Source: a virus
Strand: one strand, 5' to 3'
Length of the DNA: 41,747 nt
IMG/VR virus record: IMGVR_UViG_3300022696_000071
Coordinates: 1 to 41,747 of that record
Part shown: one piece after another, positions 24,167 through 41,747 of the stretch
Layout: each line of letters starts with the position of its first letter
How positions within the stretch are numbered: the stretch's first letter is position 1
Notes under the pieces: model-generated
The model's input: only the letters and a program-made list of their open reading frames with translations
What the model was told of the DNA's origin: nothing
Database searches by the model: none
Position numbers and translations under genes: made by a program

Positions 24167-24439
24167 TTATCTCTCCTTTACATATTTCCTTCTAAGTTCA
24201 TGAAATTTTCTAAGTGCTGCAACCATTATTTTATTATAGCACCCAATACATAAATCTTTTGATTCTTCCCTTTCAGATATTCGATGTGTATTTCCATCAC
24301 TATCGCCTTGTATATGTACTCCAATATTATCATCAAAATATGAATCAATATGACATAGATAATTGAATTTATTACTATATCTTTCATTTGTAATTTCTTT
24401 ATTACAACAATCACATTTAACAATTTTAATAATAGCCAC
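24167..24439 (-). CDS. Small Cys-rich zinc-ribbon protein (90 aa)
   Basis: CDCC...C (N-terminal) and CIGC (C-terminal) pairs. Confidence 0.4.
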   Translation of the reverse strand: MAIIKIVKCDCCNKEITNERYSNKFNYLCHIDSYFDDNIGVHIQGDSDGNTHRISEREESKDLCIGCYNKIMVAALRKFHELRRKYVKER

Positions 24440-24441
24440 GA

Positions 24442-25428
24442 TTAATTCTCCATATTCTTAAAATTAAATATTACTGATTTTTTCTTTTCTGGTTTACTTT
24501 TTGTTAATGCTAAAATCTTGTTAAATATTACCCGATAATCTGTTTTATATGACAATGTTTTTTCTTCATAAAAATCACATTGTGTTTTAAATGGATTTTC
24601 TAAAACTAAATGTCTATGTTTTTCATGACCCCACATTAATGTTGGTATTTTTAAATAATTTGATAATATTGGAATAGCTGATTGCTGGCCTATCGTTAAT
24701 TTTGAAGCTTTTATTGCTTCTATGGTAAGACCAATTAAACTAGTTTCATGTTGTGGAAATAAATAATCTTCTAATATTATAAATGATTCAAGTGATTCAT
24801 CTGGCTTTAATATTGATCCAGATAAACCAGGAATAAAACATATAAACTTTTCAGATTTCTCTATTAATTCAAACAAATCATTCCAATAATCTTCTCTCCA
24901 GTTTCTTTCTTTCCCTTTTTCTAAATCTATTCTATGTCTTGGAGATATTACAATTGGTATTTTATTTATATATTTTTTCTTATTTAATATATTATATATT
25001 ATTCCTTTATTATTTGCTCTTGGTTTAAAATTAAAATCCATTTTATCAAAATCAAATATATTTCTATTTGGAGTATTAATAGTTTTAATTATATGTATAT
25101 CATTATCAATTACATCAGTTATAATCTTAAATAAGTTTTTAAAATCAGAAGGAGAAAAATAATCCAATCTATACATATTTGGTCTATATTTATGATAATC
25201 TCCATCTATATCAAATGGTATTATATCATCTACATTATTAGAATAAAGATCTATTCTTTCAGATCTTGTAATTGCATATATTTTTTTATCATAATATGTA
25301 TTTTTTACCCACCGTACAAAACCACACCATCTATATAGTTCCCAACCAAGTTCTCCTATAAATGGTCCAAATGCTATTTTATCATTCTCAGATATTTCTT
25401 TAATAAAATTTTCTTGTATACTATTCAT
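24442..25428 (-). CDS. Hypothetical protein (328 aa), possibly glycan-processing
   Basis: Listed ORF in the glycosylation gene block. No firm motif. Confidence 0.45.
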   Translation of the reverse strand: MNSIQENFIKEISENDKIAFGPFIGELGWELYRWCGFVRWVKNTYYDKKIYAITRSERIDLYSNNVDDIIPFDIDGDYHKYRPNMYRLDYFSPSDFKNLFKIITDVIDNDIHIIKTINTPNRNIFDFDKMDFNFKPRANNKGIIYNILNKKKYINKIPIVISPRHRIDLEKGKERNWREDYWNDLFELIEKSEKFICFIPGLSGSILKPDESLESFIILEDYLFPQHETSLIGLTIEAIKASKLTIGQQSAIPILSNYLKIPTLMWGHEKHRHLVLENPFKTQCDFYEEKTLSYKTDYRVIFNKILALTKSKPEKKKSVIFNFKNMEN

Positions 25429-25439
25429 ACTTAAATCCT

Positions 25440-27266: not shown

Positions 27267-27281
27267 TTTATATAATATCTC

Positions 27282-28208
27282 CTACCATTCAGTTACAGCT
27301 TTAGAATTTTTAAATCTATTAAATATTTCTTTATGATTCATATCTTTTAATTCTTTTTCATAAGTATATAAACTATCACGATTTGATTCATAATAATTTT
27401 CTCCAAATTTTGGATTCATTAAAGTATTACATATTGATCCTATTCCTTTTAATCCACCAAGATGCATTACTAATGGATTATCTTCTTTATTTTTTGGCAA
27501 AACAGCCATCATATAATTATTTGGTCCAATAGTTTTTCTTATAAAACTCCATGTAGAAGTATCATGTCGTTTTCTAACATTATATGCATTATATATTATA
27601 TCTTTATTTATGGTCCAAACTTTATATATATTTTCCATTTGATGTTGACCCATAAACCAAAAACCAGATCCACCACCACCATCTGCATATATAACATCTA
27701 TAGATCCAGATTTTTTAATATGTGTCGCTGATCTTAATCTAAATGGTATACCTCCTGGATACTTAATGCAGAAATGTATGGTATTTTTTGGATTAAATGT
27801 ATTTAAATTATCTACAGCTTCTACAAACTGAGAATCCCAATCTTCTCCAACTAACATATCATTATCTATAAGAAGATAATAATTTGATACACCAACTGGT
27901 TTAATCATTTTTTTATTCAGATCATTCATTTGATTCATCATAATCAGCCATCGATAAAATACTATTGATTTACCAAAGCAATTATGTAATGATTCATTTG
28001 TATCATATGAATAATAGTGAATTTTTTTATCTCTTAATAATTTATAAAATAAATCCAACCTACTTTTATTTAATTCTGATAAATTATCAAATACATATAT
28101 GTATATATTATCAAATTTCGTAGAATTATCTAATATAGAACATATTGTATGAGTTGTTAATAAAGTTCTATCCCTTGTTGGGATCATCACGTATAAATTT
28201 CTTTTCAT
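27282..28208 (-). CDS. Putative GT2-family glycosyltransferase
   Basis: YVMIPTRDR (cf. the GT2 IPTYNR motif) and LIDNDM (DxD). Confidence 0.45.
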   Translation of the reverse strand: MKRNLYVMIPTRDRTLLTTHTICSILDNSTKFDNIYIYVFDNLSELNKSRLDLFYKLLRDKKIHYYSYDTNESLHNCFGKSIVFYRWLIMMNQMNDLNKKMIKPVGVSNYYLLIDNDMLVGEDWDSQFVEAVDNLNTFNPKNTIHFCIKYPGGIPFRLRSATHIKKSGSIDVIYADGGGGSGFWFMGQHQMENIYKVWTINKDIIYNAYNVRKRHDTSTWSFIRKTIGPNNYMMAVLPKNKEDNPLVMHLGGLKGIGSICNTLMNPKFGENYYESNRDSLYTYEKELKDMNHKEIFNRFKNSKAVTEW

Positions 28209-28241
28209 ATATTTCCCCTCTATAAATTTCTCATTTTAGTA

Positions 28242-28287
28242 TTTGTCCTTTTCAGAGTGTGGATTAATTTTACAAATAGCGGACAAA
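28242..28287. promoter_or_regulatory. Divergent promoter/operator candidate: GGACAAA box (reverse, 28242-28248), AGTGTGG (28256-28262), TAGCGGACAAA box (28277-28287)
   Basis: The exact 11-mer TAGCGGACAAA recurs at 14691-14701 (minus), 18771-18781 (minus) and 28277-28287 (plus). AGTGTGG lies 14-18 nt upstream of the box here and at 18796-18802 (reverse complement CCACACT) and 34611-34617. Confidence 0.4.
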
Positions 28288-28338
28288 CATTAAACTATTC
28301 TATTTTAATTTACATATACTAATAGAAAGGGGCAATTT

Positions 28339-29568
28339 ATGAACAAGGGTGCAATGCGTAGATTGGGTATAAGTGTAAGAGAAAATGGTCATGTCGATAC
28401 TCTGAAAGAAGTATTGGATGAACCACCGTTTATGGTATTAGCTAAAGTATTACATAATGGATATTTTAATATCCAAGATAAATCAATACAGATTAAAAAG
28501 GGATCTGTATTAGCTATGCCATTAAATTTTTATAATAATTGTCATAGAGCAAGAGAATCTGGAAGAAGAAAACTTCTTAAACCAAACAGAAGACCATTTA
28601 ATTATTATTTTAAAAGATACAGGGGAGAAGATTTAACAAATAAAAAGTTACTAATATGGCGAACTGGTGGAATAGGAGACTTACTTTTCATACAACCCAT
28701 AGTAAAATATATTAAACGAACATATGAAAATGTTCACATAACGATTGCGTCATCTCCAAGATTTACTGATATTTTAGAATGTTGGCCTGATGGATTAGTA
28801 GATGATATAAAATCTATACCATTTAGTTATAAGTTATTAATGAATCATAATTATCATATTACATTTGAAGGGGTTATTGAAAGATGTAAAGAAGCTCAAG
28901 TTAAAAATTGTTATGATCTATTTTCTGAAACTGCTGGATTAGATCTCGATCATACTTCCGATGATAATAAAATAGAACTTGTTTCAGATGATTCATTAAT
29001 ACATAATAATATATTACCAGAAAGTGACTATGTTGTTGCTCAAATGAGAGCAAGTAATCCATGTAGAATAATGTCAACAAGAAAATGGTCACAATTAATA
29101 AATGGTATAACTAATTATGGATTGAAAGTTGTAATAATCGATTCTCCAAAATTTCAACAATTTTATGATGACTTGTTTAAAAATTATACTATAAATAAAG
29201 ATGATGTATTTAATCTATCAGAACATTCTAAATCAATAAAACATGCTGTATCCGTTATAAATAGAGCAAAAGGAGTTATTGGAATAGATTCTTCATTTAT
29301 ACATATTGGAGAAGCACTAAATAAACCAGTGTATGGTTTATATGGTCCATTCACTGCTGATGTAAGAATGAGATATTATAGAAATTATGATTTCAGTGAA
29401 CCAGAAAAAGTAGTATGCAAGTATCAACCATGTTTTTTTCATCAGAATGAAACTAAAAAATGTCCATTTATAGCACAAAGAAAAAATCCTGGCTGTCTTG
29501 AAGAAATAGATATAGAAGTATCAGTAAAGAAATTTATGAATCTTCTTGGAATTACCGATGGAGAATAA
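28339..29568 (+). CDS. GT9-family glycosyltransferase (ADP-heptose heptosyltransferase-like) with an extra ~100-aa N-terminal extension
   Basis: LLIWRTGGIGDLLFIQPIVKYIKRTYENVHITIASSP matches the WaaC/WaaF N-terminal signature (R/K-x-x-x-x-GD-x-L-x-x-x-P...I-x-x-L). The C-terminal Rossmann region has G-rich IGIDSSFIHIGEALNKPV. Confidence 0.62.
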   Translation: MNKGAMRRLGISVRENGHVDTLKEVLDEPPFMVLAKVLHNGYFNIQDKSIQIKKGSVLAMPLNFYNNCHRARESGRRKLLKPNRRPFNYYFKRYRGEDLTNKKLLIWRTGGIGDLLFIQPIVKYIKRTYENVHITIASSPRFTDILECWPDGLVDDIKSIPFSYKLLMNHNYHITFEGVIERCKEAQVKNCYDLFSETAGLDLDHTSDDNKIELVSDDSLIHNNILPESDYVVAQMRASNPCRIMSTRKWSQLINGITNYGLKVVIIDSPKFQQFYDDLFKNYTINKDDVFNLSEHSKSIKHAVSVINRAKGVIGIDSSFIHIGEALNKPVYGLYGPFTADVRMRYYRNYDFSEPEKVVCKYQPCFFHQNETKKCPFIAQRKNPGCLEEIDIEVSVKKFMNLLGITDGE

Positions 29569-29818: not shown

Positions 29819-30595
29819 ATGGAAAAAGAAACAGTTATTCAGTTATTTACTCCGGGATTAGATAGTTATCTTGGTTATCACTATTTATCAAAAAAATACA
29901 ATGTTAAAAGAATATATTTTAAATTGAAATCAAGATATACTGATAATGAGATAAAAATACTCAATAATTTTTATAATGATATTTATATATATGAAAATTT
30001 AAATTTATCTGATATAGAACATGACGATGCATATATACCAAATAGAAATTTATTAATGGCAACATTAGCATCATCATTGTATCCAAATATATCTAAAATA
30101 TTTATAAATGGTATGAAAGATGATAGAGTTAATGATAATAGAGAAGATGTATTTAATAGATTATCTATAGTAGTATCTATGAGTATGGATAAACCGATAA
30201 TGATAACTAGTGAATTCTGGAATAAAGAAAAATCTGAAATGGTATCAACATTTGTAATAAAAAATGAGCCAATAATAGAACATTTAGCAACCAGAACATA
30301 TAGTTGTTTTAGTAAGTTTTTTATATACAATAAAACAAGAATATATAATGGTAATCCAATAGATGGTAAATTTAATAAAAATGGAAGATTAAAAATTTAT
30401 GGATGTTGTTCATGTCCAGCTTGTTTTCGTAGATTTGCGGCATTATCGAATGCAAATATATTTATACCATTTAGAAATGATAATATAGTAGATGGTTATA
30501 GAGGAGATGCTATAAATAAAAATATTCATCCATTCAGATATTTTTCAACACTTGAATATATTAGATTTTTAGATTTTATGAAAGGAGTGAGATAA
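29819..30595 (+). CDS. queC: QueC-like 7-cyano-7-deazaguanine synthase homologue (PP-loop ATPase fold with a degenerate PP-loop)
   Basis: IPNRNLLMATLAS ~ QueC VPGRNLLFMSIAA. C-terminal zinc motif CCSCPACFRR ~ CGECPACQLR. The N-terminal TPGLDS replaces the canonical SGGxDS. Confidence 0.65.
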   Translation: MEKETVIQLFTPGLDSYLGYHYLSKKYNVKRIYFKLKSRYTDNEIKILNNFYNDIYIYENLNLSDIEHDDAYIPNRNLLMATLASSLYPNISKIFINGMKDDRVNDNREDVFNRLSIVVSMSMDKPIMITSEFWNKEKSEMVSTFVIKNEPIIEHLATRTYSCFSKFFIYNKTRIYNGNPIDGKFNKNGRLKIYGCCSCPACFRRFAALSNANIFIPFRNDNIVDGYRGDAINKNIHPFRYFSTLEYIRFLDFMKGVR

Positions 30596-31198
30596 ATGGA
30601 TGGAATATACTTTCCGGAATTTCCAACTAAAACAAAAAAGAAAAAAACAAAAATAAAAACAAAATCGCCTTATATGGAATTTAAAGAATGGTTATTTAAT
30701 CCATATCCAAATGCTAAATTACCAGATCATGTTTTAAAAATTGTAAACGCAAGAACTGTATTGTGTATGTTTGGTAATCTTGGAAAACTGACAATCTTTC
30801 TCAATAAATACTTTAATAAGTTTAATATAACGTATTTAAATAAAGAAGAATTCTTTATATATATTAAATATATAATACAGAAGTTTCGTATCGATAAACG
30901 TCAATTCAGTTTTTATAAAAGTGAACAACGTGATACTTCGTATGTTGATATTCATTCTAAATTTTTTCCACATTTGAAAAAATATGAGTTAAATTTACTT
31001 ATGGAACTTATAAAAACTGATGATGATTATGATAGAATTATGGAATCATTTGGATTAACTAAATATAAAGTTACAAAAAATAAATCTAAAAAATCCAAAA
31101 CTAAAAAAGAATCAAAAAATGATGATAATAATACCATAAATAATAATAACGAAGTAACAACGTTTGAAGAACTAAAATCTTTATTTTTAGTTAACTGA
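30596..31198 (+). CDS. Hypothetical Lys-rich protein (200 aa)
   Basis: Listed ORF with AAGGAG SD. Basic N- and C-termini. Confidence 0.5.
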   Translation: MDGIYFPEFPTKTKKKKTKIKTKSPYMEFKEWLFNPYPNAKLPDHVLKIVNARTVLCMFGNLGKLTIFLNKYFNKFNITYLNKEEFFIYIKYIIQKFRIDKRQFSFYKSEQRDTSYVDIHSKFFPHLKKYELNLLMELIKTDDDYDRIMESFGLTKYKVTKNKSKKSKTKKESKNDDNNTINNNNEVTTFEELKSLFLVN

Positions 31199-31222
31199 TT
31201 TAAAAAAGGGGGGTGATCTGAA

Positions 31223-31405
31223 TTGGCAAAATATGATGAAAATTTTATAAGTAATAGATCTTTATATCTTATGGAATTTATAGAGAAAAAAAATATAAAA
31301 ATTGATCAAATGAAACGATCAGATATTTTATTCGAAATGAGAAATGTATTCAAACAATGTATAGATAGACATATAAAAAGAGAAAATAGACGAAGAGAAG
31401 ATTAA
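31223..31405 (+). CDS. Small hypothetical protein (60 aa) with TTG start
   Basis: Strong SD AAGGGGGGTGA 6 nt upstream of TTG at 31223. Confidence 0.35.
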   Translation: MAKYDENFISNRSLYLMEFIEKKNIKIDQMKRSDILFEMRNVFKQCIDRHIKRENRRRED

Positions 31406-31459
31406 CATTATAATCACTATATTATAAATTTAAATAATGAAAGAGAGGACTAAACTAAA

Positions 31460-32029
31460 ATGATAGAAAATAATGGCGATAATATAAATGAAAATGAAAT
31501 ATCATTCGATGATAGAACTATGATAATAATGGTTGGTAATATCGGAACTGGTAAAACATCAAAAATAAAACAAATAATTCATAAATTTGGTAAATATATA
31601 ATTGTATGTTTGGATGATTTACTCACATGTTTTCATGGTAAATATAAATACATAAAAGATTTTTCACTAATGTACAATATTATAGAAGATAGTATTATAT
31701 ACGAAGCAATGAAAAATAATTCAATAGTTATAATAGATAGAACATGCATAAATGAACGTGTAAGAAAAAGATTCATACAAATGGCAAAAGATAATAATTA
31801 TAATGTTGCATGTTATAATTTTGGATCTGGAACTGATGTATCTCTAAAAAGACGGTTAGTAAATCCAAAAGGAAATAGTGAAGATACATGGATAACAGTA
31901 CATAATAATATGAATAAAATATACGAAGCTCCACTTCTATCTGAGGGGATAGATGAAATATTCACCGTCAATGAAGACGGTATCGTTACACGGAGAGAGA
32001 AGTTAGTCAAAAACAACAATCATAATTAA
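31460..32029 (+). CDS. P-loop NTPase / nucleotide or polynucleotide kinase-like protein
   Basis: Walker A MVGNIGTGKTS near the N terminus. The size and layout resemble dNMP/AAA_33-type kinases. Confidence 0.5.
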   Translation: MIENNGDNINENEISFDDRTMIIMVGNIGTGKTSKIKQIIHKFGKYIIVCLDDLLTCFHGKYKYIKDFSLMYNIIEDSIIYEAMKNNSIVIIDRTCINERVRKRFIQMAKDNNYNVACYNFGSGTDVSLKRRLVNPKGNSEDTWITVHNNMNKIYEAPLLSEGIDEIFTVNEDGIVTRREKLVKNNNHN

Positions 32030-32050
32030 AAAACTGAGAGGCAATTAATC

Positions 32051-32644
32051 ATGTTAGAAATTAATGGTAAAAAAGAAATTAATGGTAAAATGATTACTCC
32101 CGCCAGGGCAGTAAAATATGCTTTAACTCAACATCTTAAGAGTTTAAACAATGATGTAACGGTTATTGTTGAAACTCCCGTGGAAGAAGAAACTGTTGTT
32201 ACTGAAGAAGTCCCTGCTCCTGAACGAGTAGAAGGAGAAGTGACTGAAACTGCCGCTGAACCAGTTGCAGTTGAAGAAGAACAACCACAAGAGCAAACTG
32301 TTGGCGAAGCAATGGAAACTGTATCCGATGCAGTTAGTGAATCACTTGGGGCAGAAGAAGTTGCTGAACATGATCTTCCAGTAAATGATGAAGAAACAGT
32401 TCACGAAGAAGTTGATCAAATCGTTGAAGATGTTGAAACGGAAAAGAATGAATACGTTCCATCTGAAGACGATGGTCTATTTAATACGGTGTCGGAGTCA
32501 GTAACTGTTGAAACAACCACGATGACAGGGTATGAAAAACTCATCAAAGAAACATATCCGAAAATGACCGACAAAGAGTTCGAAAGAACGATGGAACAAC
32601 TTGGAAAGATTGTTCCTCGTGTTCTTAAGTTTCTCGAAGTATAA
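32051..32644 (+). CDS. Highly acidic Glu/Val/Thr-rich protein (197 aa), likely disordered
   Basis: Listed ORF with GAGAGG SD. Long E/D/V/T/A-rich stretch with locally elevated GC. Strong terminator follows. Confidence 0.55.
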   Translation: MLEINGKKEINGKMITPARAVKYALTQHLKSLNNDVTVIVETPVEEETVVTEEVPAPERVEGEVTETAAEPVAVEEEQPQEQTVGEAMETVSDAVSESLGAEEVAEHDLPVNDEETVHEEVDQIVEDVETEKNEYVPSEDDGLFNTVSESVTVETTTMTGYEKLIKETYPKMTDKEFERTMEQLGKIVPRVLKFLEV

Positions 32645-32671
32645 TACTTATTACACTATAAATTAATTAAG

Positions 32672-32720
32672 AATATGAGCTATGGGAATAATTTATACCC
32701 ATAGCTCATATTTTAATATA
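32672..32720 (+). terminator. Rho-independent terminator (15-bp stem AATATGAGCTATGGG / CCCATAGCTCATATT, 11-nt loop, then TTTAATAT)
   Basis: Perfect inverted repeat followed by a T-rich tract immediately after the acidic-protein gene. Confidence 0.6.
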
Positions 32721-32734
32721 ATAGGAATATAAAT

Positions 32735-33367
32735 ATGAAAACAATTGTATATGATGTAGAAATTATAAATGTTCCAGATGAAACGGAAAAGGGTTGGGAT
32801 GATCCATTTGGTCTTGGCTTTGCATCAGCAGTAATTTACTATGTAGAAGATGATCGATATGATTTTTTTCTACATGAAGAAAGTAAATCAAGATTGATAG
32901 AAACATTAAATGGAAATAGAACAATATCATTTAATGGTATTGGTTTTGATACCATGAATATTCTTGGTAATGATAGAGTTATAAAACCAACTGAATCTCC
33001 ATTATCATTTCATGTTGAAAAGGAAATAGATGATAAAATAGTATCATGGAGAGAATTTGATATATTCATGCTTGCCAAACGATCTGAATTTGGAAAAGAT
33101 GATGTGATGTCTGCATTTTTAAGTAATGAGAGAACCGAACCAGGCGTTCTAAAATTAATGACTATATCGAAGATGACACTTGGTGGTAATTATTTTAAAA
33201 CTGGAGAAAGTGCGCTGGCACCAAAGTTATATCAGAATAAAGATTATGCTAATCTGCTTCAATATAATCTTCAAGATGTAAGATTAACATATAAATTATA
33301 TGATTTTATTATGAAAAATGGATATATTATGAATGGTAGGGATGAGCAGCTATGGATTAAAAAATAA
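32735..33367 (+). CDS. DEDD-family 3'-5' exonuclease
   Basis: Exo I VYDVEI (D-x-E), Exo II FNGIGFDTMNIL, Exo III YNLQDVRLTYKLY (Y-x3-D). Confidence 0.55.
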   Translation: MKTIVYDVEIINVPDETEKGWDDPFGLGFASAVIYYVEDDRYDFFLHEESKSRLIETLNGNRTISFNGIGFDTMNILGNDRVIKPTESPLSFHVEKEIDDKIVSWREFDIFMLAKRSEFGKDDVMSAFLSNERTEPGVLKLMTISKMTLGGNYFKTGESALAPKLYQNKDYANLLQYNLQDVRLTYKLYDFIMKNGYIMNGRDEQLWIKK

Positions 33368-33379
33368 AAGGAGAAAGAT

Positions 33380-33991
33380 ATGTCTGTCATTGGGATACGA
33401 GAAGTCATAAAGATGATAAAAGATGGAGTAGATTTATCTTTAGGTACATTTAAATCAAAATCAGTTAAGAATGTTAAACCATTAATTGAAAATTTTGATA
33501 AAGACGCGATAGTTAAACCAGAAGGAACAACATTCGATGTACGATTAGATAAATTGTTTGAATTAAAAAATGTTGATAATCTCGGAAATACATATACTCC
33601 TGAATTATTAGTTTCTGGTAGAATTACAGCAAATTCTACAGAAATTAGCCCTGATGGAAAACAAATATACTCTATATATCCAAATAAACCATATCTTGTA
33701 ACAACATTAGAAAGATTAAATACTCCAAATAATATCTTTCCAATGTGTAATAGAAGAACTACTATGTTCAGAAGTGGCCTGATTATGCAAATGACAAATG
33801 TATCTCCGGGGTATAGGGGTTATCTGTCATTTATGATATATAATGTACTTAATCACATAGTTCGAATTCAACGTGGTTTTGGAATTGCTTCTATTGCATT
33901 TTTTACAATAGATGGTCGCGCTGTTCCATACGATGGTGTTTGGCAAGAAAATAAACGAATCACAACAACTGAAGAAATAAGACCAAAATGA
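33380..33991 (+). CDS. dCTP deaminase / dUTPase superfamily protein (Dcd-like)
   Basis: FDVRLD ~ Dcd [38 protein letters not shown] ~ [43 protein letters not shown] ~ GMLIGALSF. Confidence 0.65.
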   Translation: [203 protein letters not shown]

Positions 33992-34341
33992 AGAATAAAT
34001 TATATGTAGATTATGATGAATTACATAAATTATTTTCAGATAGATTCAATTCTGAAGATACTGAATATATAATAGATAAATTAAAAGATCTTCCATTAAT
34101 AATAAATCTAAATAAATTATCAATAAATATAAGTGGTGGTACTATAACCATATTAGATCCACAATCGTTTGAGTCGTCTACAACTAAGTCAAAACTAAAT
34201 TGTGGATATTTTGATGTAGATATAGATGGTCTTGATTCAGATAGAATAACATCTATATCTATTCCAAAATTGGATATAAGGAAGAATGAGGAGTTAATTA
34301 TTAATGTGTCTTACTATCCATTGAAAAGGGGAAAGAAATGA
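33988..34341 (+). CDS. Hypothetical protein (117 aa)
   Basis: Listed ORF with ATGA overlap to the upstream gene. Confidence 0.45.
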   Translation: MKNKLYVDYDELHKLFSDRFNSEDTEYIIDKLKDLPLIINLNKLSINISGGTITILDPQSFESSTTKSKLNCGYFDVDIDGLDSDRITSISIPKLDIRKNEELIINVSYYPLKRGKK

Positions 34342-34547
34342 AAAAGAGATGTTCCAAAGAGTTAGCATGTGTTGTTCTTAAGTATATTCCAGATTATGAA
34401 AACGCTTTATCATTTTTAGAAGAGTTTAAATGCGTTGAAGGAACAACTCCAAGATTCAAAACTACTTTGGAACTGACAATTGGTCGGCTTGAGCATTTGA
34501 TAAAAAAGAGAGAGAAAAAACAAGCGAGTAAAGCAGAAGCAGCATAA
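34338..34547 (+). CDS. Hypothetical protein (69 aa)
   Basis: Listed ORF with AAGGGG SD and ATGA overlap. Confidence 0.4.
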   Translation: MKKRCSKELACVVLKYIPDYENALSFLEEFKCVEGTTPRFKTTLELTIGRLEHLIKKREKKQASKAEAA

Positions 34548-34561
34548 CCAATTTCAATGAA

Positions 34562-34601
34562 AAATGGGAAACTGGACTCTATTCCAATTTCCCATTTTTT
34601 G
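34562..34601 (+). terminator. Rho-independent terminator (AAATGGGAAA...TTTCCCATTT stem followed by TTTT)
   Basis: 10-bp perfect stem with an internally paired 16-nt loop, then TTTTTTGTTG. Confidence 0.55.
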
Positions 34602-34643
34602 TTGTCAGAGAGTGTGGTCTTTTTTTCTTATTCACCGGACATA
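34601..34643 (+). promoter_or_regulatory. TTGTCAGAGAGTGTGG...CGGACATA composite upstream of the polymerase-thumb gene
   Basis: Shares the CAGAG(A)GTGTGG and (C/G)GGACA(A/T)A elements with the 28250 region. Confidence 0.3.
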
Positions 34644-34668
34644 CTAAAAATCTTATAAAAACAGTATA

Positions 34669-35496
34669 TTGGAGGTATTAGTGGATAAAAATAAGAAAGA
34701 AGTCATCATAAAAAAGATATTGGAACATTGTTCTATATTGGAAGAAGTATTAAATAACGAATTATTAATTGAATTTGGTAAATTAAGAAATATAAAAACA
34801 AAATATAATAGATTTAGTGCAAAACAAGAAGTTATAGCACAGAGAGGATTCTTTTTAGATGTAAAAAAGAAATATGCATTATGGATTATAAATAATGAAG
34901 GAGTGGATACGGAAGAGTTTGATATAAAAGGGCTAATAACAAAAAGATCTGACTATCCAACATTAACTAAAGAAAAAATAATGGATATCATAAGTTTTCT
35001 TGTAAAAGATGATGTAGTATCTTTTAAGAAAATAAAAAAACATATAGATGAACAAGATAATAATATACGATCATTATGTATAAAAGGTGATAAATCTATA
35101 GCAAGACCTGTATCATTCTCTAAACCACTCAAAGAATATAAAAGAGTACCATCTCATGTGGAGGGTATGTTACTGTGGAATAAATTAGAATATGATTATT
35201 TTGTTCCAGGTACAAAGGGATATCAATTTAAGATAATTGGAATAGATCCAGTAATATCTACTGGAAGAGTACAATCATCATTACCATATATAAATTTTAA
35301 AAAGAATAATAATGTGGTTTTACCATACGAAGCAGATCGTCTTCCTAAATATTATAATATCGATGTTGAATCAATGATTCAATTTGCATGGGTTAATAGA
35401 TATAAAGAATTATTACATCCAATATGGGATAGATTACAATCATCTGGAAAAAACAAAAGTGGTAGATCTATGGCACAATTTGCATTTCAATTTTAA
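34669..35496 (+). CDS. Family-B DNA polymerase C-terminal fragment (thumb domain with KKRY motif and C-terminal clamp-binding tail), encoded as a separate gene
   Basis: GFFLDVKKKYALWIINNEG ~ T4/RB69 gp43 GGFWTGKKRYALNVWDMEG. The terminal ...MAQFAFQF ~ RB69 ...SLFDMFDF clamp-interaction motif. The likely true start is GTG at 34681 after GGAGG; the listed TTG is at 34669. Confidence 0.68.
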   Translation: MEVLVDKNKKEVIIKKILEHCSILEEVLNNELLIEFGKLRNIKTKYNRFSAKQEVIAQRGFFLDVKKKYALWIINNEGVDTEEFDIKGLITKRSDYPTLTKEKIMDIISFLVKDDVVSFKKIKKHIDEQDNNIRSLCIKGDKSIARPVSFSKPLKEYKRVPSHVEGMLLWNKLEYDYFVPGTKGYQFKIIGIDPVISTGRVQSSLPYINFKKNNNVVLPYEADRLPKYYNIDVESMIQFAWVNRYKELLHPIWDRLQSSGKNKSGRSMAQFAFQF

Positions 35497-36173
35497 ATCT
35501 TTCTTGCTAATTTTTTCATATCATCTGATGTTAATAAGTTATCTTTTTTATATTCATATTTTGAAATCGCTTCTGAAATGTTTGATTTACATTTATCAGG
35601 ATTACTTGTTTTATCACATAATTCTTTTTGTTTCTCCAATTGAGTAATAGTATCGTGCATTACTTTTATTTTACATGTTGTTAATCTATCACCTCTTAAT
35701 TGCCAGCATTCGCCATGTAGTCGCTTTCTATAATAAGTTACAATCATTGAACCGATTGCTAAACCAAGAGCAATGCTTGCCAAAACAGATAATATTCGAG
35801 TAGCTTTCATTGATTTATTTGCATTTTTTGAAGCTTTTTCTGCCATATCTGCAACATCATTCAATCTTTTTTTAGTATCTTTATAATCTCTTTTTAATTT
35901 TCCAATTATACTTCTTGGTCTTCTTTCTGTTGATGAGCTACTACGTTCACTTCTATTTGACGAAGATCTAGAAGAAAAAGATGCTATATAACTTTTTAGT
36001 TTACTCAAACCAGACGATTCAGACGATTCAGATAATTCAATCATATTATCTATATTATTTATCATTTCTTGTCTAATATTATTATTTATATCCAAATCTT
36101 CAATAGCTAATATCATTGATTCAATGCAATTAAAACTTAATTCCTCACCAATATATTTTTCAGATATATACAT
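35493..36173 (-). CDS. Membrane protein (226 aa): N-terminal coiled/Ser-rich region, one TM helix, Cys-containing C-terminal domain
   Basis: Hydrophobic segment ILSVLASIALGLAIGSMIVTYY. AAGAGG SD. TATAAATA lies 16 nt upstream of the ATG on the minus strand. Confidence 0.55.
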   Translation of the reverse strand: MYISEKYIGEELSFNCIESMILAIEDLDINNNIRQEMINNIDNMIELSESSESSGLSKLKSYIASFSSRSSSNRSERSSSSTERRPRSIIGKLKRDYKDTKKRLNDVADMAEKASKNANKSMKATRILSVLASIALGLAIGSMIVTYYRKRLHGECWQLRGDRLTTCKIKVMHDTITQLEKQKELCDKTSNPDKCKSNISEAISKYEYKKDNLLTSDDMKKLARKI

Positions 36174-36188
36174 TATTAAATCCTCTTT

Positions 36189-36196
36189 TATTTATA
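36189..36196 (-). promoter_or_regulatory. T4-type late-promoter-like TATAAATA box for the minus-strand membrane-protein gene
   Basis: Minus strand reads TATAAATAAAAAGAGGATTTAATAATG. Confidence 0.35.
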
Positions 36197-36254
36197 CAAT
36201 TAAACATTTAGAATTTGTCCTTCTATTACATTAAAAAAAGGAGAAAGTTTATTT

Positions 36255-38840
36255 ATGAATAAGAAATTAAAAACTAAATTTGGAGATTGTCTCAAATGTG
36301 ATTTAAACACAAAAGATAATAAGACAATGACAAAACTGGTATTTGGTGAGACAAATTGTCAAAACGACTTAGATTCTATTAAATTGTTAATATTAGGAGA
36401 AGCACCAGCTTATCAAGAAACTCTTGATAATAGACCATTCGTTGGAAAAGCAGGAAGAGTATTTAGAGCAGAATTTGCAAATTCTGGACTTATTAATATT
36501 CCACATTATATAACGAATATAGTAATGTGTTCAAATCTAAGTTATAATCCTATAACAAAAAATATAAAAACAAATAATCCGTCGCAACTTGCTATAGATT
36601 GTTGTAGTAGAAATTGGAAAGAATTAATAAATATATTATGTCCAGAATATATTCTTGCACTCGGATCATCTGTTCAAAAAGCACTTGATATAAAAGGAAG
36701 TGCAAGTCAATGTAGGGGAAAATTCTATTATTATGATGATCCAACATTTACTGGCTTTGTTCCACCACAAATATTTGCAACATATCATCCATCATATATT
36801 GCACGGGGAACAACACCAAAACATGTACGTAAACAATTTATATCTGATTTTTCAACTTTAAATAAAGAAATAACTAAAGAACCAAGTTTTATGACAGGAG
36901 AAATAGAAGAAGAGAAAAAGAATGATAAAGTTCAAAAATTTGATTTAAAGCTTAATAGTCCATATTCATTTGATATTCCAGATAAATTTAAAACTCAAAA
37001 TATTGTATTAATAGATATTCAAAAAGACAATTTCAATTCACAAATAATATATGTTTTTAGAGATGCAAATAGAAATAAATTTTATCATTATGCATCTGCA
37101 AGAGATAATTATTATTATGAATCAACTAAACTTAGTGATAATTGTGATATTCTTGAAAATGTAGAAAACGTGCATATTAAATTCGGACATCCCCCGAGGT
37201 ATGGATCACGTAGGGGATTATATGAAAGTGATTTATCAATAGAATACAAACACTCTATTGATTATTATCTACATAGAAAAAAAGATGAACTTCATTATGA
37301 TTTACAAATATTCTATTATGATATCGAAGTATATAATTATGGATCAAGAGAATTTCCAGATCCAAAAATTGCAGCAAGTCCGATAAATGCTATATCATTT
37401 AAAAATCATAATGATGAAATAAATTGTTATGTAGTCAATCCAAAATTTTTCAATTTAAATACTAATATAGATATCAATATAGAAAGTAAATCAAAATTTG
37501 ATTTTAAGCTCACTATATTTGAGAGTGAAAAAGAATTATTAGAAACTTTTATGAAAAAATTAAGAGAAGACAGTCCAGATATAATGATAGGATGGGCTAA
37601 TCATAATTTTGATATAATATATATATTTAACAGAATAAGAAAAAATAATTTAAAAGCAAGTGATTTATCTCCGATAGGAAGATGTAATATAAATCCAAAA
37701 AAATACGGAGATATATTTATAGGCGGCATATCATCTGTAGATATGCTTGAATTATATAAGAAATTTACATTTTCAGTAGAAGAATCTTATAAACTCGAAG
37801 CAGTTGCTCAAAAACAACTTGGTGAAGGAAAAATTAATTATTCTGGACCACTCGATGAAGTATACCAAAATGATTTTATAACTTTTGTTAATTATAGTGT
37901 TCAAGATTCAAGATTATTATATGAATTAAATGATAAACTTGGACATATAAAACTTGCTAATGAACTACGCAAGATTTGTAGTAGTACATGGAAAGGAGTA
38001 GAATCTACAATTGGCCTTATAGATCCATTATGTATATCATACGCAAAAAAGATGAATATTGTATGTAAAGATTCAGATATGGGTATAAATGAAAAATTTA
38101 AAGGAGCATATGTAAGAGATCCAGTACCAGGTCTTCATAGTTGGGTAGTTGATATGGATTTTGCATCAATGTATCCAAATATAATTATATCATGCAATAT
38201 TGGTCCAGACACATACATTGCAAAAATAGATGAGCAAATTGCTTATGATTATGTCTATAAAAAAGATAATGTTCCAAAATCATTTACAATAACATATAAC
38301 CCAATAACTAATTTCGACTCTACAACAATATCTTTAAATGATTTTGATAAATTTATGAGTAAAAATGAAGCGATTATTACAAGTGCTGGAACTATATTTA
38401 TTGGTCATGATAAAAAGCTATCATTTTTCAATAAGTTACTTACAATGCTTCTTGATTCACGAGTTAATTATAAAAACTTAATGAAAGATGCTAAACGAGA
38501 AGATAGAGAAGAAGACAGAGCAAGATTCTTTAATATTCAGATGGCGTATAAAATTCTTGCTAATTCAATTTATGGCGCTCTTGGCGCGTCTGTATTTAGA
38601 TTATATCGATTAGATCTTGCTAAATCGGTAACTTTAACGGGAAGAGAACTTACTCAATTTGCTGGTTATCATATGTCAAAATTTATGACTACTGATAATA
38701 AAGAAATAGATCCAGATTTTAAAGTTAAATCAAAAGAACATCAAAAGTATTGGATATATGCTGATACAGATAGCATATTTTTAGAAATTGGAGATTATAT
38801 GATAGATAAAGGTATTGCTGTAAGAGAGGAATTATCATGA
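36255..38840 (+). CDS. Family-B DNA polymerase N-terminal fragment: family-4 UDG-like domain + 3'-5' exonuclease + palm (motifs A, B, C), ending 25 aa after motif C. The thumb is absent
   Basis: UDG4-like GEAPAYQETLDNRPFVGKAGRVF and HPSYIARG, with CxxC (FGDCLKCD). Exo I YYDIEVY, Exo II WANHNFDIIYIFNR, Exo III YSVQDSRLLYEL. Pol motif A DMDFASMYPNII, motif B KILANSIYGALG, motif C YADTDSIF. The stop overlaps the queE start (ATGA). Confidence 0.85.
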   Translation: MNKKLKTKFGDCLKCDLNTKDNKTMTKLVFGETNCQNDLDSIKLLILGEAPAYQETLDNRPFVGKAGRVFRAEFANSGLINIPHYITNIVMCSNLSYNPITKNIKTNNPSQLAIDCCSRNWKELINILCPEYILALGSSVQKALDIKGSASQCRGKFYYYDDPTFTGFVPPQIFATYHPSYIARGTTPKHVRKQFISDFSTLNKEITKEPSFMTGEIEEEKKNDKVQKFDLKLNSPYSFDIPDKFKTQNIVLIDIQKDNFNSQIIYVFRDANRNKFYHYASARDNYYYESTKLSDNCDILENVENVHIKFGHPPRYGSRRGLYESDLSIEYKHSIDYYLHRKKDELHYDLQIFYYDIEVYNYGSREFPDPKIAASPINAISFKNHNDEINCYVVNPKFFNLNTNIDINIESKSKFDFKLTIFESEKELLETFMKKLREDSPDIMIGWANHNFDIIYIFNRIRKNNLKASDLSPIGRCNINPKKYGDIFIGGISSVDMLELYKKFTFSVEESYKLEAVAQKQLGEGKINYSGPLDEVYQNDFITFVNYSVQDSRLLYELNDKLGHIKLANELRKICSSTWKGVESTIGLIDPLCISYAKKMNIVCKDSDMGINEKFKGAYVRDPVPGLHSWVVDMDFASMYPNIIISCNIGPDTYIAKIDEQIAYDYVYKKDNVPKSFTITYNPITNFDSTTISLNDFDKFMSKNEAIITSAGTIFIGHDKKLSFFNKLLTMLLDSRVNYKNLMKDAKREDREEDRARFFNIQMAYKILANSIYGALGASVFRLYRLDLAKSVTLTGRELTQFAGYHMSKFMTTDNKEIDPDFKVKSKEHQKYWIYADTDSIFLEIGDYMIDKGIAVREELS

Positions 38841-39610
38841 CAATTTATTTAGCAGAAGAACCATTTTATAGTATACAGGGTGAAGGTCCAATTGTAGGAA
38901 AACCATGTATATTTTTTAGATTCACTGGATGCGTATTATCTTGTGATTTTTGTGATACAAAATATGCATGGTGGAATAAACATAAATATAAACTTGAAGA
39001 TTATAGTAGAGATAATCATAAAATACATAGATTATCTGATAGATATATAATAACTGGTGGTGAACCATTAATGCATGTTCATACAATAGAATTTAAAGAG
39101 TTTATAAAATCATTATTATCCATTGGAAGAGTATCTTTTGAAACAGTAATGCTGCCATCTACAGGAGATATAAAATCTCAATTATCTATGGGAGTAATTC
39201 ATTATATGAATAAAGTAGATGAAATATTTGATACTCATCCAGAAGATAGAAGATATATCATATCTCCAAAATTAGATTTATCATGCTATGATCGAAGTTA
39301 TCAATATTTCAATAATATAGATGAAGTAATAAACTATTACTCATTTGAAGAACATCAAACATGGTATAATACAATGTTCTTTTATAAATTAGTGTACAAA
39401 AAAGAATACGAAGAAAACATTCTTAAATTATTTAGAAGTACGAATATGGATTTTGACAGATTTTATATTATGCCATTCACACAATTACCATTTGATAGAA
39501 AAGAGTATATAAAATCTTGCAAAGAAACAATTGAATTTTGTAAAAAGCATGGGTTTATTTATTCACCACGATTACAATTTGATGTTTATGGAGATAAGAA
39601 AGGAGTATAA
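38837..39610 (+). CDS. queE: 7-carboxy-7-deazaguanine synthase (QueE, radical SAM)
   Basis: EPFYSIQGEGPIVGKPCIFFRFTGCVLSCDFCDTKYAW matches the QueE N-terminal signature including the CxxxCxxC cluster. ITGGEPLMH follows. Confidence 0.85.
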   Translation: MTIYLAEEPFYSIQGEGPIVGKPCIFFRFTGCVLSCDFCDTKYAWWNKHKYKLEDYSRDNHKIHRLSDRYIITGGEPLMHVHTIEFKEFIKSLLSIGRVSFETVMLPSTGDIKSQLSMGVIHYMNKVDEIFDTHPEDRRYIISPKLDLSCYDRSYQYFNNIDEVINYYSFEEHQTWYNTMFFYKLVYKKEYEENILKLFRSTNMDFDRFYIMPFTQLPFDRKEYIKSCKETIEFCKKHGFIYSPRLQFDVYGDKKGV

Positions 39611-39613
39611 AAA

Positions 39614-40267
39614 ATGTCAATATCTTTTATTGAATATACAGACCAAATAATAGGTGAATTTTCAGATGGAACTAATAGAATATTAGTAATTGGTCCTGGA
39701 TACACATGTACTGACTCATCATTAAATCATAATATTGTATGGGAATCAGTAGATGATAAATATATAGACCCAAAACCAATGATTGATATACCAAGAGATA
39801 CAATGATAATACAAAATAATTTAAATATGGATATAATTGAATGGTTTGAAGCATACAAGCATTCATATGAACGAAAGTTTAACTTATTTGATGTAGTAAT
39901 AATGTGTAGGGTATTTGAACATATAGAAATGAGAAGAGTTGATTATTTCTTATATAGTTTATACTCAATGTTATCTGTTAATAGTACTGTGATATGTACT
40001 GTTCCAGATATGGTAAATTCTGCATTACAGCTTGAAGAAGAATATAGAAAAGATAAACCAGATGCATTTAAAATACAACGATTAACATTTGAATTGTTTA
40101 ATGAAGGTCCAAGTGTGAGAGACAGACATGCGTTATGGTCAAGTAAATCATCTATAAAATATTTATTTGAAAGAGAGAATTTATTTAAATTTAATTCTGT
40201 TAATAAAATTGAACTTGATACTAATCTTGTACCAAATCAATTGGAATTCAGATTTTTTAGAAATTAA
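39614..40267 (+). CDS. Putative SAM-dependent methyltransferase-like protein (217 aa) between queE and the DpdA-like gene
   Basis: RILVIGPGYTCTD (motif I-like G-x-G) and DVVIMCRVFEHIE (motif II/III-like). AGGAG SD. Assignment by eye, weak. Confidence 0.4.
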   Translation: MSISFIEYTDQIIGEFSDGTNRILVIGPGYTCTDSSLNHNIVWESVDDKYIDPKPMIDIPRDTMIIQNNLNMDIIEWFEAYKHSYERKFNLFDVVIMCRVFEHIEMRRVDYFLYSLYSMLSVNSTVICTVPDMVNSALQLEEEYRKDKPDAFKIQRLTFELFNEGPSVRDRHALWSSKSSIKYLFERENLFKFNSVNKIELDTNLVPNQLEFRFFRN

Positions 40268-40279
40268 GAGAGTAATGAA

Positions 40280-41653
40280 ATGAATAAATTTATATGTGCG
40301 GCTATACCTTCTATTAGAAGACACTGTAATGTTGTATTTAAACATTATGATGAATATGCAGATAGAGAGGGATTAAATAAATTTTTATTGGATAATTGTA
40401 ATAAATTTTTATCTTCTGTGGGAATATCTTTAGATATTAAAAGATATGGTGGTGTAGATAATAATCTATTCAAACGATATAATACTATATTCAGAAATAT
40501 AAAAAATGAAGAATATATGAAAAATATAGAATTGGTATTAGATAGTGCTGGATACCAATTCCAATGTGGTTTATTTTCTAAATCACAAATACCAAAATTC
40601 ATTAAAATGTACCATAACTTTTTAATAAAAAATTATACTGAATATAATAATGCTTTCTTATTTGATCCTCTTCTTGGTGATATAGATGGTTATGATGAAA
40701 TGAAAAAATATAATATATACTCGTATGCAAAAGCTTCACAACTTCCAGTATATGTAAGAGATAAATTAATGTTTATATATCACTTTAGAACTCCACTTAT
40801 CAATAGATTATATAAGGAATTATTATTTGATTATAAACTTGGTGATCATTTTAATAATTTTGCAACTGGTGGATTGGTAGCATTTAATAGAACATCACGA
40901 AAAGGAATACCATGTATACTTTATACAATACCATTAATTTATATATTGAATCATGCAAAGCGTGTTGGATTAAGAAAATTTAGATTCCATATATTAGGAA
41001 ATGCAGAGTTTAAAGATATAATATTCCATAGATTAATCGAAAAACACGTAAAAGAAATTCATAATATTGATTTAGATATAACTTATGATAGTTCAACTAT
41101 ATTTAAATCATTTATGATGGGTAGATATTTCATATATAGTGATGACTCTGATCAATCATTATATAAATTATTTATTCGATCAGATACACTACATAAGAGA
41201 TTTAAAAATCACGGAACAAATGAAGATTGTTTCTATAAACTAATAAATGAAATTTCGAATACATACGGCTTCAAAGCAATAACAAAATCAGACGTTCCAG
41301 TGTACAATGAGCATAATCGAATCTCTCCACTATTGGCGTTTTATGGAATTCTTTTAATTTTGAGATTGTATGAAATATGTGACAAGTGGGCTATGGGTTC
41401 CATAGATCATCTGTACAGGCTTTACACACGCGGACATAATATTGAATTTAATAATAAACTAATAAATACTTTAACGAATTTAAATAATGGGGTTTTGTCA
41501 CGAACTATAAGATATAGATCAAATGCATTTATAAATAGTATGAATGCAATTGAAGAATTAGATATAGAATATAGTGATTATATTATAAAAACTTATTTAT
41601 CATTCGATGAAGATAAAAATCTGGCAAGAAATAGAGAATATATAATGAGGTAA
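40280..41653 (+). CDS. dpdA: DpdA-like tRNA-guanine transglycosylase family protein (candidate DNA 7-deazaguanine transglycosylase)
   Basis: LDSAGYQFQ ~ Tgt LTDSGGFQV. AFLFDPLLGD ~ VMAFDECTPY (catalytic Asp). FATGGLVAFN ~ YAVGGLAVGE. FHILGNAEFKDI ~ HYLMGVGKPDDI. DITYDSS ~ DMFDCVL (second catalytic Asp). Confidence 0.68.
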   Translation: MNKFICAAIPSIRRHCNVVFKHYDEYADREGLNKFLLDNCNKFLSSVGISLDIKRYGGVDNNLFKRYNTIFRNIKNEEYMKNIELVLDSAGYQFQCGLFSKSQIPKFIKMYHNFLIKNYTEYNNAFLFDPLLGDIDGYDEMKKYNIYSYAKASQLPVYVRDKLMFIYHFRTPLINRLYKELLFDYKLGDHFNNFATGGLVAFNRTSRKGIPCILYTIPLIYILNHAKRVGLRKFRFHILGNAEFKDIIFHRLIEKHVKEIHNIDLDITYDSSTIFKSFMMGRYFIYSDDSDQSLYKLFIRSDTLHKRFKNHGTNEDCFYKLINEISNTYGFKAITKSDVPVYNEHNRISPLLAFYGILLILRLYEICDKWAMGSIDHLYRLYTRGHNIEFNNKLINTLTNLNNGVLSRTIRYRSNAFINSMNAIEELDIEYSDYIIKTYLSFDEDKNLARNREYIMR

Positions 41654-41657
41654 TTAT

Positions 41658-41747
41658 ATGAAAAAGAGAAAAAAAAGAGAATTAATTCTATCGTTAACAA
41701 AAAAAGACTTTGTTATACAAGCATACAAAGGAAGTGGACCAGGAGGG
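41658..41747 (+). CDS. Partial (N-terminal 30 aa) GGQ-motif peptidyl-tRNA hydrolase / ArfB-like release-factor domain protein
   Basis: MKKRKKRELILSLTKKDFVIQAYKGSGPGG... matches the ArfB/RF pattern L..S......F...RGSGPGGQ. Truncated by the window end. Confidence 0.4.
   Translation, partial: MKKRKKRELILSLTKKDFVIQAYKGSGPGG

What the first reader, a model, noticed from the sequence alone, without database searches (positions are those of the whole stretch)
29819..41653. Dispersed 7-deazaguanine DNA-modification genes (QueC-like, QueE, DpdA-like) interleaved with replication genes
QueE at 38837, a QueC homologue at 29819 and a TGT/DpdA-family transglycosylase at 40280 are the core of phage dPreQ0/dADG-type guanine replacement systems. 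Here they are scattered among DNA polymerase, exonuclease and dCTP-deaminase genes. The queE start overlaps the polymerase stop, which suggests co-expression with replication. FolE and QueD are not in the window. The QueC homologue has TPGLDS in place of the canonical SGG.DS PP-loop, and an uncharacterised methyltransferase-like ORF sits between queE and dpdA. Together these raise the possibility of a non-standard 7-deazaguanine derivative, for example a methylated or otherwise tailored form. No additional amidotransferase, QueF or ArcS-like domain was recognised here.
Basis: partly seen in the sequence, partly recalled or inferred. Interest (0 to 1): 0.75.

Follow-up and report, generated by a model that had tools for sequence, protein, structure and literature searches.

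The report
Phage 7-deazaguanine DNA-modification gene set
An uncultured T4-like giant phage carries QueE, a divergent QueC and a previously unclassified relative of the DNA-guanine transglycosylase DpdA, which most likely replace guanine in its DNA with a 7-deazaguanine base to evade host nucleases; standard annotation does not recognise the transglycosylase family.

Summary

The best reading is DNA guanine exchange by a new DpdA-like subfamily. The base is probably made from host CPH4 by QueE and, in this subclade, amidated by the QueC-like enzyme.

The "non-standard derivative" idea is only weakly supported. TPGLDS still fits the SxGxDS PP-loop. The methyltransferase-like ORF occurs in this genome only, and its relatives sit in bacterial mobile elements.

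FolE and QueD are absent from the window and from all 50 loci. The inserted base (dCDG, dADG or dPreQ0) cannot be decided in silico.

The parts
29819..30595 (+). QueC-like ATP-dependent 7-carboxy-7-deazaguanine (CDG) amidating enzyme, divergent subfamily
   Evidence: Pfam QueC 36.3 bits (cut-off 22) and phrog_1550. Family alignment has invariant G13 L14 D15 S16 (PP-loop (T/S)xGLDS), P74 R76 N77, D106, K138 and four Cys (163, 196, 199, 202). AF2 model pLDDT 92. A homologue sits next to DpdA-like and QueE-like genes in Bacteroides phage BS162P1.
38837..39610 (+). QueE-type radical-SAM enzyme (CDG synthase); its start overlaps the polB stop (ATGA)
   Evidence: phrog_2076 E 4e-30; five NCBIfam QueE models are the top hits, all below equivalog cut-offs; PDB hits 6nhl, 5tgs, 4njg. 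At least 90% conserved in 44 homologues: E8, QGEG 14-17, R28, C32x3C36x2C39-DT, TGGEP 73-77. ATGA overlap.
39614..40267 (+). Class I SAM-methyltransferase-like ORF; accessory insertion, role in the module unproven
   Evidence: Methyltransf_12 E 0.009, below threshold. Ten homologues at 38-42% identity (nine full-length, 191-195 aa), some with PF13489, located in integrase/D5-primase elements. Absent from the 49 other loci. GxG and (D)xVIMxRVxEH motifs.
40280..41653 (+). TGT-fold, DpdA-like putative DNA-guanine transglycosylase (new subfamily)
36255..38840 (+). Context: UDG-domain + family B (T4 gp43-like) DNA polymerase, main fragment, translationally coupled to queE
   Evidence: Pfam UDG, DNA_pol_B_exo1, DNA_pol_B; phrog_262 positions 18-589. 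Found in 46 of 50 loci that carry the TGT-like gene.
34669..35496 (+). Context: polymerase thumb fragment encoded upstream of the main fragment
   Evidence: phrog_262 positions 597-766. Same split in L001; intact 1075-aa gene in L003.

Best explanation
This is a phage DNA-modification module that replaces guanine in phage DNA with a 7-deazaguanine base. QueE (38837-39610) converts the pterin intermediate CPH4 into 7-carboxy-7-deazaguanine (CDG). CPH4 would come from host FolE and QueD, or from genes outside the window. In this subclade the QueC-like enzyme (29819-30595) activates the CDG carboxylate with ATP and amidates it, giving 7-amido-7-deazaguanine and possibly preQ0. The 457-aa TGT-fold protein (40280-41653) then exchanges guanine in DNA for that base by the TGT/DpdA double-displacement mechanism, with D270 as nucleophile, D88 as general acid/base, and D129 and H168 reading the base edge. 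Expression is coupled to the replisome genes: queE overlaps the polB stop and DnaB follows in relatives. The modified DNA would resist restriction and other nucleic-acid-targeting defences. Shown here: gene identities, fold, conserved catalytic residues and conserved neighbourhood. Inferred: DNA as the substrate, the identity of the inserted base and the protective role.
Against: There is no chemical or experimental evidence. The TGT-like family matches no curated TGT/DpdA sequence model, and profile comparisons are weak (hhalign probability 31-38%, E 3-5e-4). Homology therefore rests mainly on a predicted structure. FolE and QueD were found neither in the 41.7-kb window nor within 10 kb in any of 50 loci, so the source of the QueE substrate is assumed. 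DNA rather than tRNA, protein or nucleotide as the substrate is inferred only from context and from DpdA being the top structural hit. Family pI is unremarkable (median 7.7). The bacterial DpdA needs an ATPase partner, DpdB, and I did not look for one.
Confidence: 0.65

Rival explanations
1. Nucleotide-level, pre-replicative route. The TGT-like enzyme exchanges the base on dGMP or dGTP, or on a nucleoside, and the phage polymerase then incorporates the deaza-nucleotide. This would explain the tight coupling of queE to polB.
For: queE and polB are translationally coupled, and a kinase-like gene (31460-32029) and a DCD-like nucleotide-metabolism gene (33380-33991) lie nearby. ADG nucleoside was reported in cells infected by Campylobacter phage CP220, as cited in PMC10516641.
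Against: All characterised TGT/DpdA enzymes act on polynucleotides. Cui et al. 2023 conclude that every known DNA 7-deazaguanine is post-replicative because a DpdA is always present. The large helical region after the nucleophile Asp (residues ~300-457) parallels the large Ins8 insertion of DpdA.
Confidence: 0.1
2. Protein or other non-DNA target. The QueC-like and TGT-like pair would work like CBASS type IV Cap9 and Cap10, conjugating CDG to a protein N-terminus, for example as a counter-defence or regulatory mark.
Against: Across the clade the conserved partner is QueE, not a QueC-like enzyme (48 versus 7 of 50 loci), and protein conjugation requires the QueC-type ligase. No CD-NTase or OGG-like partner was found in the window. 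DpdA and TGT score higher than Cap10. The full catalytic Asp set for glycosidic exchange is invariant.
Confidence: 0.08
3. tRNA-directed. The phage remodels queuosine- or archaeosine-type tRNA modification to tune translation.
Against: There is no zinc site and no PUA domain. The window has no tRNA genes. DpdA is the best structural match. The gene sits constantly between the polymerase and DnaB. A tRNA role would not need a phage QueE in a host that makes Q.
Confidence: 0.07
4. Unrelated functions. The TIM-barrel protein is a glycosidase or other enzyme, and the radical-SAM protein is an NrdG-like activase, so the grouping is coincidental.
Confidence: 0.05

Closest known systems
Bacterial DpdA (Salmonella Montevideo, PDB 7UI4), the DNA preQ0 insertase of the Dpd system
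   Different: About 11% identity. No hit to Pfam TGT or to PADLOC Dpd models. No DpdB or DpdC partner was identified. It is encoded in a phage replication module, not a restriction-modification island.
Phage DpdA3 (Cellulophaga phage phiST CGPG_00065; also Campylobacter and Flavobacterium phages)
   Same: A phage transglycosylase that escaped standard annotation. It occurs in phages whose encoded pathway can stop at CDG and lies near polymerase genes. The motif logic is similar: LDNGAG, HxLG, (S/T)DSC. It is a weak structural hit in BFVD (rank 21, E 6e-3).
   Different: 259 aa against 457 aa. Profile-profile comparison is not significant (hhalign probability 4%, E 0.009). DpdA3 phages encode FolE and QueD next to QueE, and these loci do not.
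Long TGT-like proteins of jumbo phages, e.g. 'tRNA guanine transglycosylase' of Achromobacter phage Motura (A0A514CSI4, 473 aa)
   Same: Among the best viral structural matches (Foldseek E 2.7e-6, TM 0.49). Similar length. Motura is described as carrying a deazaguanine synthesis and DNA-incorporation system (PMC7824862).
   Different: No detectable sequence similarity: tblastn against 50,697 phage records gave nothing at E<=10. I did not examine Motura's gene context.
QueC, and its repurposed relatives Cap9, QatC and DpdC
   Same: Pfam QueC passes the threshold. The PP-loop in its SxGxDS form, four Zn cysteines, and PNRN and Lys motifs are conserved.
   Different: Pro replaces the second Gly of SGGxDS in most members. 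A ~30-residue beta-hairpin is inserted between the first Zn Cys and CxxCxxC. It scores far below the NCBIfam QueC equivalog cut-off (29 versus 150 bits). The product (amide, nitrile or another amide) is unknown.
DpdM, the dPreQ1 methyltransferase of phiSM and VH7D
   Same: Only the idea of a methyltransferase encoded inside a deazaguanine cluster.
   Different: DpdM has a CxxxCxxCC metal motif and a unique fold. ORF 39614-40267 is a Rossmann class I methyltransferase-like protein without that motif. No QueF is present to make preQ1.

Membership tests
TGT/DpdA superfamily | (beta/alpha)8 TGT-type barrel | tested here: met
TGT/DpdA superfamily | Three active-site Asp residues: general acid/base in DSGG, base-binding Asp, and nucleophile Asp | tested here: met
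   D88 and D270 are invariant and D129 is >=90% conserved in 111 sequences. They align to the TDSGGFQ, MIFDEC and DMFDCV motifs of TGT. The roles are as described for DpdA Asp95, Asp130 and Asp256.
TGT/DpdA superfamily | Significant match to the curated sequence model (Pfam PF01702) | tested here: not met
   No TGT hit for the window protein or for any of 41 family members at E<=1. PDB profile hits to TGT are sub-threshold, E 0.3-0.9.
tRNA-guanine transglycosylase (bacterial TGT / ArcTGT) | Structural Zn site (CxCxxC...H); PUA domain in ArcTGT | tested here: not met
   No alignment column has Cys at a frequency of 35% or more (highest 33%), and only H168 and H237 are conserved His. There is no PUA hit. 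The TGT Zn segment aligns to a Cys-free region.
DpdA3 | Sequence/profile similarity to phiST CGPG_00065 and its relatives; ~260-aa minimal barrel | tested here: not met
   hhalign of the 111-sequence profile against a 12-sequence DpdA3 profile gives probability 4.4%, E 0.009, over 34 columns only. Length is 457 versus 259 aa.
DpdA4 | Match to DUF6610 (PF20314) | tested here: not met
   No such Pfam hit in 41 members at E<=1.
bDpdA (Dpd system) | DpdB ATPase and DpdC partners in a dpd island | tested here: not met
   No PADLOC Dpd hits for the four ORFs tested. The surroundings are phage replication and structural genes. DpdB itself was not searched for.
DNA 7-deazaguanine modification system (functional class) | Modified deoxynucleoside present in the DNA | not testable with these tools
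   This requires LC-MS/MS of phage or plasmid DNA.
QueE (CDG synthase) | Radical-SAM CxxxCxxC cluster plus QueE-specific QGEG, R and TGGEP motifs | tested here: met
   All are >=90% conserved in 44 homologues. phrog_2076 E 4e-30. PDB QueE hits. The protein falls below the NCBIfam equivalog cut-offs (60 versus 300 bits).
QueC | PP-loop, Zn-binding Cys4, Pfam PF06508 | tested here: met
   Pfam 36.3 bits versus 22. (T/S)xGLDS with invariant G, D and S, and four invariant Cys. The strict SGGxDS form is not met, and the NCBIfam equivalog cut-off is not met.
DpdM (dPreQ1 methyltransferase) | CxxxCxxCC metal motif; co-occurrence with QueF | tested here: not met
   The motif is absent from ORF 39614-40267. 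No QueF was found in the window or in any of the 50 loci.
CBASS type IV Cap9/Cap10 | CD-NTase partner whose N-terminus is deazaguanylated | tested here: not met
   No CD-NTase-like Pfam hit among the window ORFs. PADLOC hits are weak and only for the QueC-like protein.

The most novel reading that the evidence does not exclude
The clade-wide conserved pair is QueE plus the new TGT-like enzyme, with no QueC, FolE or QueD nearby in most genomes. The native substrate of this transglycosylase subfamily may therefore be CDG itself. That would give DNA in which 7-carboxy-7-deazaguanine, so far seen only at trace level in one archaeal virus, is the main modification. In the window's subclade, the Pro-containing QueC-like ligase (with or without the inserted methyltransferase) would convert CDG into an amide or ester derivative not yet described in DNA.
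Probability: 0.2. Interest if true: 0.8.

Novelty: new variant of a known kind. Interest (0 to 1): 0.6.

Why it matters
Cui et al. 2023 treat DpdA as the signature protein of 7-deazaguanine DNA modification and list five subfamilies. This locus indicates a sixth, larger and sequence-invisible subfamily, with at least 380 clusters at 50% identity. It is confined to a widespread lineage of uncultured T4-like large phages and is embedded in their replication module. If confirmed, the known reach of guanine replacement among environmental phages would widen. Annotators would gain a marker for these genomes. It would also provide a natural test of what a DpdA-type enzyme inserts when only QueE is supplied. 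Modified G also affects sequencing, restriction cloning and CRISPR targeting of these phages.

Tried and rejected
1. Sequence-family searches of the 457-aa protein (Pfam, PHROGs, NCBIfam, PADLOC, PDB phmmer/hmmsearch) and tblastn against GenBank phages at E<=10 gave no significant hit.
2. Membership of DpdA3 was rejected after building a DpdA3 profile from phiST and IMG/VR relatives.
3. Exact-protein look-ups of the window's own proteins returned 'not on record', so the rest of the 201-kb contig could not be read.
4. Pattern scans of IMG/VR with FolE and QueD alignments returned no contig that also carries the TGT-like gene. The patterns were narrow, so this is inconclusive.
5. A scan with phiSM DpdA found nothing.
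6. The Rfam scan (gathering thresholds, all families) returned nothing, so no preQ1-type riboswitch was detected; the tRNA scan of the window was also negative.
7. The idea that the methyltransferase-like ORF is a conserved tailoring enzyme was rejected on distribution: 0 of 49 other loci, with homologues in bacterial mobile elements. It is also not a paralogue of the window's other methyltransferase.
8. Family pI as a hint of DNA binding was uninformative.
9. No fold search was left for the QueC-like model, so only its confidence and secondary structure were used.
Full report
**Setting.** The window is AT-rich (22-35% GC). Genes from 28339 onward lie on the + strand, and a block on the - strand covers 1-28208. 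The exact proteins come from a 201-kb JGI metagenome contig. Relatives of the locus lie on viral contigs of up to 312 kb that carry T4-type portal, prohead protease and gp23 genes. The polymerase is gp43-like, about 29% identical to cyanomyovirus polymerases. This is an uncultured, distant T4-like large phage.

**Observation check.** Every factual element of the finding was reproduced.
- ORF 38837-39610 hits the PHROG family 'QueE-like radical SAM' at E 4e-30 and Pfam Radical_SAM and Fer4_12 above threshold. Its only significant PDB sequence hits are three QueE structures.
- In 44 non-identical homologues from related loci, the QueE hallmarks are at least 90% conserved. These are E8, QGEG 14-17, R28, CxxxCxxC-DT and TGGEP 73-77.
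- ORF 29819-30595 passes the Pfam QueC threshold, 36.3 bits against 22.
- The queE ATG overlaps the polB TGA as ATGA.
- Pfam scans of essentially all ORFs in the window found no FolE, QueD, QueF, ArcS or amidotransferase.

**The DpdA-like protein.** ORF 40280-41653 (457 aa) is invisible to Pfam, PHROGs, NCBIfam, PADLOC and PDB sequence search. It has no tblastn hit in 50,697 GenBank phage records even at E<=10.
- It has 43 close homologues, none with a Pfam domain. An exhaustive profile search found 380 representatives at 50% identity with E<=1e-3.
- An AlphaFold model built on the alignment is confident (pLDDT 91.8, pTM 0.91).
- The best Foldseek hit in the PDB is ArcTGT.
- In BFVD the model matches long uncharacterised phage proteins, the annotated transglycosylase of Achromobacter phage Motura, mycobacteriophage DpdAs and, weakly, phiST DpdA3.

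**Active-site residues.** In an alignment of 111 family members down to about 20% identity, the only invariant residues are D88, H237 and D270. Conserved at 90% or more are S89, G91, Q93, F126, D129, N145, H168, G197, G198, L239 and G240.
- A profile search of the PDB gives only sub-threshold hits. Almost all of them are Z. mobilis TGT, aligned exactly at DSGGYQ (Asp102) and VGGL (Gly229-Gly230-Leu231).
- hhalign against 80 bacterial TGTs gives E 5e-4, probability 31%, over 327 columns. It places D88 on TDSGGFQ, D129 on MIFDEC, GGL on VGGL, HILG on LMGVG and D270 on DMFDCV.
- These are the general acid/base, the base-binding Asp and the nucleophile of TGT, from established knowledge. They correspond to DpdA Asp95, Asp130 and Asp256. 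Alanine substitution of the general acid/base and nucleophile Asp residues abolishes DpdA guanine exchange (PMC10164549).
- The family has no conserved Cys cluster, so it lacks the TGT zinc site.

**Relation to named DpdA subfamilies.** A DpdA3 profile built from phiST CGPG_00065 and 11 IMG/VR relatives is not significantly similar (hhalign probability 4%). No member hits PF01702 or the DpdA4 domain DUF6610. No paper in the held library names a further subfamily. I therefore treat this as an unclassified DpdA-like subfamily.

**Neighbourhood.** I compared 50 loci: the window, two metagenome contigs and 47 IMG/VR contigs, 32 of them with the full 10 kb on both sides.
- A QueE-like gene accompanies the TGT-like gene in 48 loci, the UDG-PolB gene in 46 and a DnaB-type helicase in 45.
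- A QueC-like gene is present only in the window and five of its nearer relatives, always next to the homologue of ORF 30596. One further locus has a more canonical QueC.
- FolE, QueD, QueF and DpdL homologues were found in none.
- The conserved core is therefore polymerase, QueE, TGT-like and DnaB. QueC is a subclade addition.

**The QueC-like enzyme.** The family keeps (T/S)xGLDS with invariant G, L, D and S. It also keeps PNRN, D106, K138 and four Cys that align with the Zn ligands of QueC.
- The Cap9 study defines the pyrophosphate-binding motif of QueC-family enzymes as SxGxDS. TPGLDS fits this with a conservative Ser-to-Thr change. Some family members read SPGLDS, SCGLDS or SGGLDS.
- ATP-dependent activation of the CDG carboxylate is thus the expected chemistry.
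- The same subfamily (HMM E 2e-25) lies directly upstream of a DpdA-like gene, with a QueE gene about 1.7 kb further downstream, in the cultured Bacteroides phage BS162P1, where all three are annotated as hypothetical. This independently ties the subfamily to DNA-type deazaguanine modules.

**The methyltransferase-like ORF.** ORF 39614-40267 has class I motifs and homologues carrying PF13489. It occurs in none of the other 49 loci. Its relatives sit beside integrases and D5-type primases in bacterial elements without que genes. It lacks the DpdM metal motif. It is best seen as a recent insertion. A tailoring role cannot be excluded but has no comparative support.

**Mechanism.** The most likely scheme has three steps.
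1. QueE makes CDG from CPH4, supplied by the host or by genes outside the window.
2. The QueC-like enzyme amidates CDG to ADG and perhaps onward to preQ0.
3. The TGT-like enzyme swaps guanine in phage DNA for the product by double displacement through D270. This happens during or just after replication, since the genes are co-expressed with the replisome.

I put 0.65 on this class of explanation. The identity of the base is open. My rough split is dADG or dPreQ0 most likely here, dCDG plausible for the many relatives with QueE only, and a new derivative at about 0.2.

**Rivals.**
- Base exchange at the nucleotide level: 0.10.
- A Cap9/Cap10-like protein conjugation: 0.08. It is disfavoured because QueE, not the ligase, is the conserved partner.
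- A tRNA target: 0.07. There is no Zn site, no PUA domain and no tRNA gene.
- Coincidence of unrelated enzymes: 0.05.

**Verdict.** The finding is real and its core interpretation is reasonable. The genuinely new element is the transglycosylase subfamily and its QueE-only pairing. The system is a new variant of a known kind. Chemistry, substrate and the source of CPH4 remain untested.

Noticed in passing
window 34669-35496 (+), 35493-36173 (-), 36255-38840 (+): The family B polymerase is split and the pieces are in permuted order. The thumb fragment (KKKY motif, phrog_262 positions 597-766) is encoded upstream of the UDG-exo-palm fragment, which ends just after YADTDS. A 226-aa opposite-strand ORF lies between them. 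The same split occurs in L001. The gene is intact (1075 aa) in L003.
   Followed up: partly
window 8588-11692 (-): A 1034-aa ORF carries intein splicing domains and a LAGLIDADG domain. Its C-terminal part weakly matches thymidylate synthase / dNMP hydroxymethylase (PF00303, E 0.002), and it clusters with ThyA-sized ORFs of related loci. It is probably an intein-interrupted ThyA-family gene.
   Followed up: partly
L015 1382-3103: The QueE homologue of this related phage has an insertion of about 340 aa inside the CxxxCxxC radical-SAM motif, probably an intein.
   Followed up: no
window 20334-29568: A sugar-related block: PfkB-family kinase (20334-21251), WYL_2 protein, class I methyltransferase (21591-22268), GT1-like (22295-23356), GT2-like (23359-24162) and a GT9 heptosyltransferase-like gene (28339-29568) just upstream of the QueC-like gene. 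It could glycosylate virion proteins, host LPS or DNA. The GT9 neighbour is shared only with L001.
   Followed up: partly
window 1-8160 (-): An open frame of at least 2720 aa runs off the window start. The only Pfam hit is DUF2341.
   Followed up: partly
window 18930-20290: A 1.4-kb stretch (GC about 22-24% in the overlapping 2-kb windows) has no ORF of 40 aa or more. It is rich in short AATCTA/TAGATT palindromic units and inverted repeats. It may be an origin or a regulatory region. No Rfam or tRNA hit.
   Followed up: partly
window 41658-41747 (+): A truncated ORF begins MKKRKKRELILSLTKKDFVIQAYKGSGPGG. From memory this resembles the GGQ-motif region of ArfB/ICT1-type peptidyl-tRNA hydrolases. 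It is too short for a Pfam hit. Relatives have DnaB at this position.
   Followed up: no
L076 (Bacteroides phage BS162P1, OP172706.1 60181-64195): A cultured Bacteroides phage carries unannotated QueC-like (60181-60909), DpdA-like (60980-61807) and QueE-like (63476-64195) genes, all labelled hypothetical. This predicts 7-deazaguanine DNA in that phage.
   Followed up: partly
window 33380-33991 (+): A dCTP-deaminase-like (DCD) gene lies in the replication module. Together with the ThyA-family gene and the glycosyltransferases it could point to a second, pyrimidine-based DNA modification.
   Followed up: no
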